Assembly: GCF_040938485.1 (NCBI RefSeq)
Contig: NW_027271798.1
Coordinates: 248,001-312,000, forward strand
Origin: Diadema antillarum
Taxonomy: Eukaryota
DNA length: 64,000 nucleotides
Reading direction: 5' to 3'
The first letter of the stretch is position 1. The number at the start of each line of letters is the position of its first letter. Of this stretch, positions 1 to 6,000 are shown piece after piece. Made by a program: the position numbers.

Positions 1-3000
1 TCAGTATTCATTAAAACTGACTGTTTATTTTCATTTTCCAGGAATAACGTATGTACATACCAACCTGGTATAAAATCTGGGAACACTAGCAAATTTGGAT
101 CATAGAGCGTGTTTCTACTGAGAGCACCTCACATCCCTGGCATCGCCACGAATTTTGTCCAACGCAGCACCTCGTATTTTACGACCACTCGAGCTGTTTC
201 TACTGAGCGATAAAATACGAGGTGATGCAACGGTGACGTGCAAATGCCGCGATTCCGGAAGTCAGGTATTTTTAAGTCACAGATTTGGGTCACGCGCGCA
301 CTGCCTGTTAATACGATCCGAACCCTGCACTGCTTTGCTACAACTGCGTCGGCTATTTTTTGATTAGCCATTTCTCTTCGTCTTCCCATCCAATATACCC
401 CGAACTAACATACTGGTATCCTGCCACTGATTGATGAGAAATCTTTGGAGATCGAGGGTCCAGTTGAGATTTTCTCAAGGCTGCGACATACTAATGCAGT
501 GAGGTCCACGAGGGGTTTTAGCATGTCGCTGCGACATGCTAAAATTTTTGCGCGACATCCTTCAAAACTTGCGACATTCTAAGCGCCATGCCAATAAAAC
601 TGCGACATGCTAAAAGTAACTAACTCGCAAATGACTTACGAGAGTGCTCCTTGTTGAAAGGAGCAGCAGTTTACAAGCGCCAAAAGTTTATCCACAGTCA
701 CCGCACCGATCACAACACAACGCGGCTCAACAACAAGCTATCAGTACAACAGTCTCGCACAACACCACATCACACACTTGCTCACTATCTCCCTCACCTC
801 CCTGCTCACATGTGTATGCTATGGGATTGCGCTCTGATTCGGGATCCACACACACAGCAATTTGTGTGAAGTAACACCTATGCAGCGGCACAGACAGCCG
901 CCTGTATGCATGTGAGAGGGAGAGAGAGGACGGAAAGAGAGGGTCGGAGGCCGAGGGAGGCTGAGGAAGGCTGACACGTGCTCGCTTGTTGTCACGCTTG
1001 TTGTCGGGTTACGCAAAAACAAACGATATGAAATGCATGCCCCCCTTCGCCAAAGGTTGTATTTTATATATATATATATTTTTTTTTTTGCTGCTTTGGT
1101 TTGTCTGTTCGTTTGTCTGCCTGTCTGTCTCTCTATTCGCAAAATAGGTCAAAAGTTGGGAACAGATTAGGATGAAATTTCAGGAACGGTTGGTTGGTAA
1201 AATGGCGCAAGGAACAGATGATTAAATTTTGGTAGTGAGAAGGATTTATGATACCACTGGAATTCAACGTCAGGATATCCAGGATTTTTTCTTAGACTTT
1301 GTTTCGTATATTTGAAAGGATTCGTATCAATTCTATAGGAAGCTTGCCATCGGCAATAGCAATTACGCAAAATTAGATGCGTTCAAAGCATTGCCGCAGA
1401 GAGAAAATTACCTCCATCTTTCGTTAAAAAAAAATCAAAAACAAAAACGAACGATGGAGTAAGCAAATGCAAATTGTTTAATCTTTTTTTTTTTGGTAGA
1501 TTCAGCGGGTTAGTTTTTCTCTAAAAAGCCATGCGTTCCATTTGAACCTTTAGTAAGTTAGATTTTACTCGAGCGCCGAAGTTGAATTTATCCCAAGGAT
1601 CTCGTCGCAATACCGAGTTTCCAATGTGTATTCATTTTCGCGTAGCTTTCGGTGCTGCAAAATTTTGCTAGGGCCTAAGTTTACTACTAAACTAATTTCT
1701 GTCGTTTCTCGCACCTCGTTTGGTACGATTTCTTCCCTTTTATATCACTTTATCCGTTCCCTTTATACTTTGAAGTAATTAAACGTAATTCCGTGTCTCG
1801 CACTGTTATTTTTGTAACGGCGATTTCTCCGCTTCGCTGCAATACTTTTTCGAATCGAAGCGACGGAGCTCGGAGTTTGATCCCAGCAGCCGCTTCGATG
1901 TGCTGTTTGTTGTATTTTCTAAATAAAAATGTTTGTGTTGTTGGGAGGTGTTGATACTTTGTATTTGTTATTTATTTTCCTAGGTATTTATCTCGAGGGA
2001 TTAGGGCCTATGCGTGTTTCTTAATGTTGATAGGAAAAGGCTAAAATGATCTTGAGTGATGTCTGATGGTGATGATGATAACTATGCTGGTGACTGGTGT
2101 AAAAAGACGGATTCCTGTGAATGCTGAGCGTACGTGACGTTTGTTTATTTCCCTTTCCCTCTTACTCTTCTTTCCCCCTTACTCTCCTTTCCCCTCTCAA
2201 GAATGATAAAAAAAGAAATTACATACACCTCACAACAAAAAGAACCACGTGCTATAGCAACCTTCGTAAAGTTCAATCTAAATGTTCAATATCAGCAAAG
2301 AATAAGGGGAAAGCACGAATGACAATAAATAAAAGCGAAGAGATCGTGTATGCAGTCTCTTCGGCTAGAAGAAACTTGACACCCCACCCCTCTCCCTTGT
2401 GGAAATTTCCACAAAAGCAGGTGCCACACCCAGGTGCGTGCCAGACGAAAGAATGCGCGCACTGGAATAAACAGCGTGTAAATATCCTGGAAATATCGAT
2501 CGAAGAACCAGCTCATTAGTTGAATTAAAGGAATCATTGCAAAGATATCATGATTCTATTTCTATAGCCTTTCTTTTGGCGCATAGTAGGAAACATCGAA
2601 CAGTCGATTATAGTGTACTTGATCGAATATCTAATGTTCCCTGAACAATAAAAAAAGGATTGATTATTCAGTCAATTAAAAATGCAATCACAGAAATACA
2701 TGAATTAAAGGTCTCGTATGACCAGACAAATTCACTACGAGTACAATTGTAGGTCCAGTGAGATGCAGTCATCACCTGGTTTAATACAACGTGTAATGAC
2801 AATTAATTCCAGTTCACGCTCATCAAAACTGCTTATTACTTTTCAAAGTTTTGGCTATCAACATTCGTTCGTGGGTGTATTTTGTTTGTTTGTTTGTTTG
2901 TTTGTTTGTTTTGTGTGTTTTTCTCTCGTGAAAGGCGTAATGATTTCTTCGTATCGAACGTAAACTGCATGTTTACCGTAAACAAGCCATTCAGCTCAGC

Positions 3001-6000
3001 TCAGCTATGGCGCATTCGATCCATCGAACTTGCAGTAACCTCTTACAGGCAGGATCGAGCACATGGCGCATTCCTTTAAAGTGAAAACTAAGTTTCGGTA
3101 AGTGCTGGAGAACCCGTCTAGCACCATTTCATTTTGAACGTGAAGCCACGTGTTTGCATCGGCGCTTCCACACACAGCGCGGCATTTTGCGATCATCGTT
3201 ATAGCAGAATTTCCGATTCCAGTCAGGGGAAAAGGAATTGGAATACTTCTGAAAATACTGATATTTAAAATCCAATAAAATAAAAAAGCCTGAAAACAAC
3301 GCATGATTATGTTTAAATAGTAAACAACAATTGGAAACACAGAACAGAGTTTTGCATCCGCTCACACAGAAGCTCTCTTGAGAAGATGAAAGCATTCCCC
3401 GTCCCCTGCTAGATAGTGGAAGCTTCCATAATCAGCCCAGCAAGTTTTTGGAGGTACATACAGTTGTACTTGCACTTGTACACATTCATTGCGAGAAAGC
3501 AATCAATCAACGCTGAACATTGCGTAGTTTGGCATCTTTATCGTGCTGGTGACCAGCTCGATCCTTCGGCATGTGTCATAACGTTATGTTTAGAGCCTGT
3601 AGGCCTCATAAGTTGACAAGTTTAATTCAAAATAGCAAAAAAGAAAAAAAAAAGGAGATTGAAAAAATATGAATTCTGGTGGGAAAATACGAATTTTGCA
3701 GCTGCTGAGTACTAATTTTTGCTTCCAAAGGTTGGCAGCTCTGTACTTTGGAAATCTAATTTCTCTCTGGAAAGGCTTATTGTGGATAGAATTATCTAGA
3801 TCTGAGTTTTTGTTAAATGTCATTCAAGTTAACTAAACGTCTGTTTACCAGTAGGCTGCAAAAGTGCAGTTCTCACTTTTCTACACTCATCTCATCTACT
3901 TTGTGAGTACACAGTTATCTTGGCATTTCAATGTGAAACCAGGGAGGTGGCTCCTCCCTGGTGAAACTGAAAGTAAATAATATTAAAGACAGTCAGTGTG
4001 CTGTACTGTAGTACAAGTTCAAGATGTCCTTGTCATTTATCATAGCATCCCCATTGAGGAGTATATCTATTCAAGATATATTCAAAAGGTCTTATGAGTA
4101 AGGAGTAGGACGATATATTAACATTTCAAGAACAATTTAAAATCTTATGTCATAATCAAACAATTAAACATAATTTTTCAAATATTAATGATTTTTATCC
4201 TGGCATTGCAGAGTGATCATGGTGATCAAAGTGTTCAAAATAAGGCTAAGATAGCACCAGAGAGCATCTAGAACCCCAGAGCTTCCAGGGCCCTTAAGCG
4301 GGCCCTGGACCCCGGCCGCAAGGGACTTCGCGCTTCGCGCTCGTGATGTGCGCTTCGCGCACATACTTTCATGCGCAATATCACTTTTTTCCCCCTGCAA
4401 CATGCTAAAATTTCAAGTTGTGGACCACCCTGCTAATGTGGTACTCTCGCGATTCGAGACAATATAAAATGAAATAACGTGGTGTAAAATCAAGTAATTG
4501 ATGAGGGCTTAGTAATGCAATAAGTTAGGCGAACAATAGACGATGAATGCCACAATTCACATGTAACGTAACGTATAGGGCCTATAACACATACACAAGC
4601 GAGTTGGTACAAACAAAGCATGATGCGAACACGGTCGCTGTGTGTACACACATATTTTGTACACATGTGTCGAAGGAGTGTGTGCGATGAACCGATTGAA
4701 AAGCGCGGGGAGAAATTCTAGACGTCCGAACACCACGAATTTCGCTACCCGGTGTGTTTCTACTGAGAATCGTCCTTCGCGTCACCATGCATCGACCACC
4801 TCAATAGATGGACGACGGAGCACCTCGCATCAGCCGGCATCGGCCACTACCAGATCTGTTTCTACTAAGGAAAAATTCGAGGTGTCACCACGCATCGGCC
4901 GGTATCACCACACATCGGCTGGCATCACCTCGAATTATCGTCGCTCAATAGAAACACGCTCATATTTAGGCTATTGTACAATGTAAACTGGCAGTAAAAG
5001 CAGCATTTGAAATGCATTCTGATGCTGTTTGCATTTGGGTTTACCCAGCCATACTGATGATTTTCAGCAATTTTCATGTACTTCTAGTGATAGAAATCAG
5101 TACCATCATGGGGCAATGTTTGGGTAATGATATAACTTAAACTACAGGGCTAAAGTACAGTGTACACCATTGATATGACAGATACTTTGTACCTCAAGTT
5201 TTAGAGAAACCAGCATAATTTCATATTGCATGGTCAATCATATAATTTATTTCATTCTCAGCAATGACCTGAAAAAGTGATGATTCATTGTCAGTTTGAC
5301 CAAGGATTTGTGCCACTGCCCTGGTTGGACATAATGTATGAATTATAGAGAAGTGCCAGTCATATAATGGGATGCTTTTTTGGGGGGGGGGAGCAGGGGG
5401 ATTGCATTGCTTGGATACTTACTACACCAAGCCTCACAAGACATTTGTGTATACATTTTAAATGGTACCTTGCACCTTACCCTGTATTTTGAGGAGGAAT
5501 GTTTAGTTACCCTGTGTTCATGTACAAGATGACCATCTTTGAGGAAGAGTGTGAACATGTGGTGATAAATGACGTCAGTATGTGAATTTGTCTTTATACC
5601 CCAGAAAGAAACAAATATTAATGTTGGTATGATCTTGATGAACATTTTTAAGAGAAAGGTGTCATTCTGGTATAACATTTTAGATATGCTGGCAGAAAGA
5701 AAACTCAACATGCCGGCAAACATACCAGTACAAATTTGTCAGTAACCTGGCATCTGTGGTTGCTAGGTATACACAACAAATATTGAGCTAGGGAGACAAT
5801 TTAGTTACACCTGACTATTACATGTAAGTGGCCCTCAATATAGATTCAGATTCAGATTTTATTTTTTATTGTGCACTATAGGAAATCCCTTCTGTTGGAA
5901 TTTATACAAATAATATGCATACATGGATACATGTTTCATACCAGGTACATCATACACATACATGAAATACAGTTCTCAATATGCAATTATGCAATCGTAT

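What the first reader, a model, noticed from the sequence alone, without database searches (positions are those of the whole stretch)
105..4961. 4.86-kb TIR-bounded, CpG-rich cassette that may supply srGAP with a promoter and first exon
Seen: 18-bp inverted repeats (1 mismatch) at 105-122 and 4944-4961, each flanked by ATA. CpG richness ends almost exactly at the right TIR. The interior has no transposase ORF but contains an ATG mini-exon with a consensus donor (3063-3097) and nested repeats. Known: G(A/G)GC-starting TIRs with 3-bp TSDs are typical of PIF/Harbinger elements, and such elements can capture or donate regulatory DNA. Inference: either a young, unmethylated non-autonomous element has inserted in an srGAP intron and been exapted as a promoter, or two related MITE ends bracket a native promoter, forming a composite element that could mobilise it.
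Basis: partly seen in the sequence, partly recalled or inferred. Interest (0 to 1): 0.68.

Follow-up and report, generated by a model that had tools for sequence, protein, structure and literature searches.

The report
Young DNA transposon in urchin srGAP intron
A 4.86-kb stretch bounded by inverted repeats inside an intron of a sea-urchin srGAP gene is most likely a recently inserted, non-autonomous DNA transposon, and nothing shows that it gives the gene a promoter or first exon.

Summary
The window is sea-urchin DNA, not human. Its exon peptides match Diadema antillarum srGAP3-like models.

**Confirmed**
- The 17/18 inverted repeat at 105-122 / 4944-4961 and the ATA on both flanks.
- CpG o/e of 1.01 inside versus 0.37 outside.
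- A CpG change point at 4958, with the next CpG at 5573.

**How strong this is**
- The repeat alone is chance-level: 1.15 such pairs per simulated window.
- The two ends share a dense set of sub-terminal motifs found nowhere else in the window. This shows they are related.

**Not supported**
- The promoter and first-exon idea. Residues 1-82 of the protein are not in the window, so the cassette lies in an intron.
- All 5 urchin proteins that hold the next exon start MTTDKKQER or MASDKKQER.
- 18 of 28 GTAAGT sites in the window have an open ATG upstream, so the mini-exon is not evidence.
- ATA fits no PIF/Harbinger-type target.

**Also found**
- A 716-bp CpG-poor patch (3584-4299) lies inside the cassette.
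- The right end (4750-4961) is itself a small MITE-like unit.

Copy number and an empty site could not be tested.

**Verdict:** an ordinary, unclassified non-autonomous or composite DNA transposon.

The parts
102..104 (.). left copy of the putative 3-bp target-site duplication (ATA)
   Evidence: Read directly. The chance of a 3-mer match in this window is 0.02.
105..122 (+). left terminal inverted repeat
   Evidence: 17 of 18 complementary to 4944-4961.
105..228 (+). left sub-terminal module: terminal motif, spacer, second motif copy (190-207) held in a hairpin (arms 164-181 / 211-228)
480..615 (+). four direct copies and one inverted copy of a GCGACATGCTAA-type repeat; one more copy at 4394-4413
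   Evidence: (families D2, D5; pairs I12, I13, I17).
1151..1245 (+). piece of an interspersed repeat also present at 56202-56313
   Evidence: 74-97% identity over 31-76 nt.
2075..2516 (+). stretch with a close homologue in one other public record (protein P0014, one 912-bp contig); non-coding by its pattern of change
   Evidence: 87% identity. The match runs over two frames, with stops in the window copy.
   Evidence: It ends in phase 2, so it would be in frame with exon 9276-9444.
3584..4299 (.). CpG-poor patch inside the cassette (3 CpG, o/e 0.14)
   Evidence: No bounding TIR or TSD was found.
4750..4961 (+). right sub-terminal module, itself MITE-like: direct copy of the left module (4754-4884) plus an inverted terminal 40-mer (4922-4961) that matches 190-228
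   Evidence: (I16). The inner TIR is 15 of 18. Its flanks are ACC versus ATA, so it has no duplication of its own.
4944..4961 (-). right terminal inverted repeat
4962..4964 (.). right copy of the putative target-site duplication (ATA)
9276..9444 (+). first srGAP3-like coding exon present in the window (residues 83-138 of the 882-aa models); its upstream intron holds the cassette

Best explanation
Positions 105-4961 are one mobile unit. It is a non-autonomous cut-and-paste DNA transposon, possibly a composite whose right arm is a complete small element of the same family. It inserted at an ATA in the intron between the exon or exons for residues 1-82 and exon 9276-9444 of a Diadema srGAP3-like gene.

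A transposase supplied in trans would bind the repeated GTTTCTACTGAG-type motifs near both ends, cut at the outer inverted repeats and duplicate 3 bp of target. The block keeps a CpG content of about 1 because it arrived recently in a CpG-depleted (by inference germline-methylated) gene body, or because it has escaped methylation. It is an intronic passenger, with no demonstrated role in srGAP expression.

Shown here: the ends, the flanks, the CpG step, the lack of coding capacity and the intronic position. Inferred: mobility, youth, and the trans-acting enzyme and its family.
For: - The TIR is 17 of 18, with ATA on both outer flanks.
- TIR plus matching 3-bp flanks arose 2 times in 60 simulated windows.
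- All five copies of the 12-mer lie within about 200 bp of the two ends and nowhere else in 64 kb.
- The end regions align far above shuffles: 46-47 versus a maximum of 31. They share more than 15 short motifs in both orientations.
- The CpG change point at 4958 coincides with the end of the right arm. No CpG follows for 610 bp.
- A second inverted-repeat-bounded stretch in the same gene (37408-37937) shows the same pattern: o/e 1.59 inside versus 0.11 and 0.39 in the flanks. The 10 other such stretches range from 0.17 to 1.59, as expected if CpG decays after insertion.
- No coding capacity or RNA gene was found: Pfam 0 of 65, Rfam 0, tRNA 0.
- The inner TIR candidate at 4750 is poorer (15 of 18) and has no matching flank, and the left end has no partner of its own. 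The outer pair is therefore the only complete one.
- The intronic position is shown.
Against: - There is no second copy of the ends or interior in the other 59 kb, and no eukaryotic DNA collection was available. Mobility and copy number are therefore untested.
- ATA fits none of the 3-bp target types I could document: TWA, ANT, CWG, TNA, and the TAA/TTA of Zator-1.
- The right end is not the mirror image of the left. It is a direct copy of the left module plus an inverted 40-mer, which also suits two separate insertions.
- The 716-bp CpG-poor patch looks like ordinary intron.
- The left CpG boundary rests on 104 bp.
- The 3-bp flank match has a 2% chance probability on its own.
Confidence: 0.6

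Rival explanations
1. Two independent insertions of one MITE family flank native intron DNA. One is complete (4750-4961) and one is truncated (105 to about 228). The native DNA stays CpG-rich because it is unmethylated in the germ line, for example an intronic regulatory island. The ATA match is coincidence.
For: - The right end has its own inverted pair (4750-4767 / 4944-4961, 15 of 18) and repeats the left module in direct orientation.
- The CpG-poor patch at 3584-4299 resembles the surrounding intron.
- The interior shares almost nothing with the ends.
- A close relative of 2075-2516 exists on a separate 912-bp contig. That contig could be a transcript.
Against: - The unit at 4750-4961 has no duplication (ACC versus ATA), whereas the outer pair has one.
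- The left copy would need to have lost its 3' end.
- No other copy of the family lies in 59 kb, which makes two copies within 5 kb less likely.
- The CpG step falls within 4 bp of the outer arm's end. A native unmethylated domain has no reason to end there.
Confidence: 0.2
2. The inserted or bracketed block is used as an internal promoter. Its 35-nt ATG mini-exon (3063-3097) splices to exon 9276-9444 and gives an srGAP that lacks the first 82 residues of the F-BAR region.
For: - It has a GTAAGT donor and ends in phase 2, matching the 1-nt start of exon 9276.
- The CpG-rich state is compatible with an unmethylated promoter.
- Another urchin model (P0004, Lytechinus pictus) has a different N-terminus joined at a later exon. 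Internal 5' ends are therefore annotated in this gene family.
Against: - All 5 proteins that hold exon 9277-9444 start MTTDKKQER or MASDKKQER: the 4 members of the Diadema cluster and P0002.
- 18 of 28 GTAAGT sites in the window have an open ATG upstream, and 7 of those end in phase 2.
- No transcript data could be consulted.
- I did not search with the mini-exon joined to the next exon.
Confidence: 0.05
3. The inverted repeat and flanks are a chance match in ordinary intron DNA.
For: Inverted 18-mers with at most 1 mismatch occur 1.15 times per simulated window.
Against: - The shared sub-terminal motifs cluster at both ends.
- The flanks match (2 in 60 simulated windows).
- The CpG step is exact.
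Confidence: 0.03

Closest known systems
Non-autonomous PIF/Harbinger (Tourist-like) elements and the wider PHIS superfamily
   Same: 3-bp duplication, a short TIR that starts with G, no transposase, and an AT-rich target. Features are taken from passages of PMC4482050.
   Different: The duplication is ATA, not TWA. It also does not fit AT, ANT, CWG or TNA of the other PHIS groups. No autonomous partner or further copy could be looked for. At 4.86 kb it is far longer than a MITE.
CACTA / EnSpm-type elements (features recalled, not taken from a call)
   Same: 3-bp duplication without a strict sequence. A short motif is repeated in both orientations within a few hundred bp of both ends. Long non-autonomous derivatives occur.
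   Different: The termini read GAGCG..., not CACTA or CACWG.
[quoted passage not shown]
   Same: Two copies of a small palindromic DNA transposon bracket unrelated DNA. The outer TIRs and a 3-bp duplication mark the whole as one transposed unit, which sits in introns or UTRs of host genes.
   Different: In that case the arms are complete, have identical 33-bp TIRs, the duplication is TAA or TTA, and several insertion sites prove movement. Here the left arm is only a half module, the duplication is ATA, and only one site is known.
Unmethylated CpG-rich islands in mosaically methylated invertebrate genomes (general background; abstract of PMC11292947 seen in the listing)
   Same: A CpG o/e of about 1 within a CpG-depleted gene body.
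   Different: The boundary coincides with a transposon end to within 4 bp, and the block contains a CpG-poor patch.

Membership tests
PIF/Harbinger (PHIS) | 3-bp target-site duplication of sequence TWA | tested here: not met
   The length of 3 bp fits, but the sequence is ATA on both sides. TWA is stated in PMC4482050.
PIF/Harbinger (PHIS) | TIR usually starting with A or G | tested here: met
   The TIR starts GAGCG. The feature comes from PMC4482050.
PIF/Harbinger (PHIS) | DDE transposase plus Myb/SANT ORF, or TIRs shared with an autonomous element that has them | not testable with these tools
   No such ORF lies in the cassette (0 of 65), as expected of a non-autonomous copy. No eukaryotic genome or repeat library was at hand to find a partner.
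CACTA / EnSpm | termini CACTA or CACWG (recalled) | tested here: not met
   The termini are GAGCG... / ...CGCTC.
CACTA / EnSpm | 3-bp duplication and sub-terminal repeats in both orientations (recalled) | tested here: met
Zator | 3-bp duplication TAA or TTA, as reported for Zator-1 | tested here: not met
   ATA here. TAA and TTA are reported in PMC12905397.
Any transposable-element family | several copies with different flanks, or an empty site | tested here: inconclusive
   There are 0 further copies of ends or interior in the other 59 kb. One external relative of 2075-2516 exists (P0014), of unknown kind. The genome itself was not searchable.
Composite transposon | two copies of one small element as arms, with outer ends and duplication shared by the whole | tested here: inconclusive
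   The right arm is complete. The left arm is only the 5' half module, in direct orientation. The outer TIR and ATA are present.
TE-derived alternative promoter / first exon | a transcript or protein model that starts in the element and joins the next exon | tested here: not met
   None of the 5 proteins that hold exon 9277-9444 starts with the mini-exon peptide. RNA data were not available.

The most novel reading that the evidence does not exclude
A young composite DNA transposon has carried about 4.5 kb of unmethylated foreign DNA into an srGAP intron. That DNA now acts as an internal promoter. Its in-frame ATG mini-exon gives an N-terminally truncated srGAP without the first 82 residues of the membrane-bending F-BAR region. 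This would be a transposon-made, possibly polymorphic isoform of a neuronal guidance regulator in a sea urchin.
Probability: 0.04. Interest if true: 0.55.

Novelty: new member of a known kind. Interest (0 to 1): 0.18.

Why it matters
As it stands, this is an ordinary intronic insertion in a genome where about a quarter of the DNA is unclassified repeats (D. setosum, PMC11066563, passages).

Its modest value is practical. In this CpG-depleted gene body, blocks with a CpG o/e of about 1 and base-sharp edges mark recent insertions. That gives a simple way to find young or polymorphic elements in Diadema. The end modules also define an unclassified 3-bp-duplication family that could be curated.

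It would matter more only if transcripts were shown to start inside it.

Tried and rejected
- **Other copies in the window.** blastn with words of 9 and 7 and nhmmer, cassette against the rest, found only a piece of about 100 nt (1151-1245 versus 56202-56313) and low-complexity matches. The flanks 1-104 and 4962-5400 also hit nothing, so there is no paralogous empty site.
- **Right-end ORF 4624-4983 against 5.8 billion proteins.** No hit.
- **Ten ATG ORFs of the cassette looked up exactly.** 0 of 10 are in the collection.
- **Longest interior ORF against 1.84 billion representatives.** One close relative (P0014) and one weak repetitive hit (P0015, E 4.8e-4, not followed).
- **A nested element around the CpG-poor patch.** No convincing TIR or TSD.
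- **RNA genes in 1-6000.** Rfam 0, tRNA 0.
- **The 12-mer in the paper library.** 3 papers, none on transposons by title or abstract.
- **PMC11071193.** Its passages gave nothing usable on duplication lengths.
- **A 2-bp duplication (AT or TA).** Considered and rejected, because it needs ends that are offset by one base.
- **Human origin.** Considered and rejected. The exon peptides are those of Diadema models.
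Full report
**What the window is.**
- GC is about 37%. A single N run at 25172-25340 was left alone.
- Two + strand ORFs match the RhoGAP domain.
- The ORF that holds the exon at 61569-61787 finds SLIT-ROBO Rho GTPase-activating protein 3-like of Diadema setosum at 99% identity, followed by other urchins.
- The 90% cluster holds three Diadema antillarum models. The window's exon peptides agree best with these: summed HSP identities are 630/729 and 607/708, against 598/708 for D. 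setosum.
- The window is therefore sea-urchin DNA, not human.
- I searched exons one at a time and mapped named or returned whole proteins onto the window with tblastn.

**Where the cassette lies in the gene.**
- tblastn places residues 83 to about 705 of the 882-aa models on the + strand from 9277 to about 62620.
- Residues 1-82 have no credible match anywhere in the window. The best hit has E 0.76 and 35% identity over 31 aa, on the minus strand.
- The first exon present is 9276-9444, with its acceptor AG at 9274-9275 and a GTAAGT donor at 9445.
- The cassette therefore sits in the intron between the upstream N-terminal exon or exons and this exon. It is not at the gene's 5' end.

**The observation.**
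- The 18-nt arms, the single mismatch and the ATA on both outer flanks are as stated.
- An inverted 18-mer of this quality is not rare by itself. Markov-1 simulations of the window give 1.15 per window, and 2 in 60 windows with matching 3-bp flanks.
- The real window holds 24 such loci, which belong to about ten other inverted-repeat-bounded stretches.
- The sub-terminal structure is what makes this pair real:
  - The core 12-mer occurs five times (at most 1 mismatch), at 111, 196, 4756 and 4858 on the + strand and 4944 on the - strand, and nowhere else. The expected number is 0.67.
  - The two end regions align with scores of 46-47, against a shuffle maximum of 31.
  - They share more than 15 short motifs in both orientations, all confined to 105-228 and 4733-4961. 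A GCGACATGCTAA-type repeat is also shared between 480-615 and 4394-4413.

**CpG.**
- CpG o/e is 1.01 inside the cassette and 0.37 outside.
- The last CpG is at 4957 and the next at 5573. The change point is 4958.
- The block is not uniform:

| Region | CpG o/e |
|---|---|
| 105-3582 | 1.05 |
| 3584-4299 | 0.14 (3 CpG in 716 bp) |
| 4300-4961 | 1.31 |
| 4962-9275 | 0.23 |

- I found no TIR or duplication that would make the CpG-poor patch a nested element. It remains unexplained.
- Only 104 bp precede the cassette. They hold 1 CpG, where 4.6 would be expected at the inside rate (P = 0.056).
- As context, another inverted-repeat-bounded stretch in the same gene (37408-37937) has o/e 1.59, against 0.11 and 0.39 in its flanks. 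The ten other such stretches span 0.17 to 1.59. This fits decay of CpG after insertion into a methylated gene body. The mosaic, gene-body pattern of invertebrate methylation is general background (abstract of PMC11292947 seen in the listing).

**Anatomy of the ends.**
- The right end is not the mirror image of the left.
- The stretch 109-225 aligns in direct orientation with 4754-4884. The reverse complement of the terminal 40 nt (4922-4961) aligns better with the internal copy at 190-228 than with 105-122.
- So 4750-4961 is a small self-contained unit, with arms 4750-4767 / 4944-4961 that match at 15 of 18. Its flanks are ACC and ATA, so it has no duplication of its own.
- The left end has no inverted partner nearby.
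- The outer pair is therefore the only one with good arms and matching flanks. This favours one transposed unit, either a long non-autonomous element with a duplicated end module or a composite.

**The interior.**
- No Pfam family reaches its cut-off in 65 ORFs of 45 aa or more. No Rfam family and no tRNA were found.
- The longest ORF (2121-2516, 132 aa) has one close relative among 1.84 billion representatives. This is P0014: 148 aa, 87% identity, from one unnamed 912-bp contig.
- Mapped back, P0014 covers 2075-2516 in two frames, and the window copy has stops. The similarity is therefore that of non-coding DNA.
- P0014 may come from an allele, an orthologue, a second copy or a transcript. 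I cannot tell which, and I did not try to trace the record.

**Promoter and first exon.**
- The 35-nt ATG stretch ends in phase 2, and exon 9276 starts with one base, so the two would be in frame. That is a 1-in-3 event.
- 18 of 28 GTAAGT sites in the window have an open ATG within 300 nt upstream, and 7 of those end in phase 2.
- A search with exon 9277-9444 for longer proteins returns only the Diadema cluster and P0002. All five proteins start MTTDKKQER or MASDKKQER.
- One Lytechinus pictus model (P0004) has another N-terminus joined at a later exon. Internal starts are therefore not unheard of in this gene family, but that start lies in a different intron.
- There is thus no positive evidence for the exaptation, and no transcript data to exclude it.

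**Family.**
- Passages of PMC4482050 give these target duplications: TWA for PIF/Harbinger, AT for ISL2EU, ANT for Pangu, CWG for NuwaI and TNA for NuwaII. ATA fits none of them.
- Zator-1 makes TAA or TTA.
- From memory, CACTA/EnSpm elements combine 3-bp duplications with sub-terminal repeats in both orientations, which resembles this element. However, they end in CACTA, which this one does not.
- I therefore leave it unclassified. In D. setosum, 25.87% of the genome is unclassified repeat (PMC11066563, passages).
- The 12-mer is not in print in a transposon context in the searched library (3 unrelated papers).

**Limits.**
- No eukaryotic DNA collection, repeat library, RNA data or methylation data were available, and two collections and all paper supplements were closed.
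- Copy number, empty site, autonomous partner, transcription and methylation all remain unchecked.

**Verdict.** This is a real, probably young, unclassified non-autonomous (or composite) DNA transposon in an srGAP intron. The promoter and first-exon idea and the PIF/Harbinger label are not supported.

Noticed in passing
window 12158-12736 and 45698-46266: Two inverted-repeat-bounded stretches of about 570 bp share nearly the same terminal 18-mer (TTAAAGGACAAGT-type). They are two copies of one MITE-like family in different introns. Their CpG o/e is 0.65 and 0.59.
   Followed up: partly
window 37408-37937: A 530-bp stretch with 27-nt inverted ends (93%) has CpG o/e 1.59, against 0.11 and 0.39 in its flanks. 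It is a second sharply CpG-rich, probably young element in the same gene.
   Followed up: partly
window 26468-27590 and 60495-61370: Two further CpG-rich blocks (o/e 1.18 and 0.93). The first has no inverted ends. The second adjoins a hairpin-like element at 61154-61346.
   Followed up: no
window 59916-59942 and 61506-61568: The window reads like model P0012 (…PPGRERM, then …LVPELCIASVRRVPEFPASCFAR) rather than isoform X1 (P0011). Residues 581-612 of P0011 were not found by tblastn. This may be an allelic or assembly difference, or a frame change in one exon.
   Followed up: partly
window 20914-25032, including the N run 25172-25340: A cluster of inverted and repeated copies of an ACGTTACGTATGGGACAT-type motif lies next to the masked or gap stretch. 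The N run was not examined further.
   Followed up: no
protein P0004 (Lytechinus pictus model): It has a 69-residue N-terminus unrelated to the other urchin srGAPs, joined at the SREMTVEV exon (window 34892-34954). An internal alternative start is therefore annotated in another urchin.
   Followed up: no
window 1151-1245 and 56202-56313: A short shared piece of an interspersed repeat (…GGAACAGATGATTAAATTTT…) lies inside the cassette and in a distant intron.
   Followed up: partly
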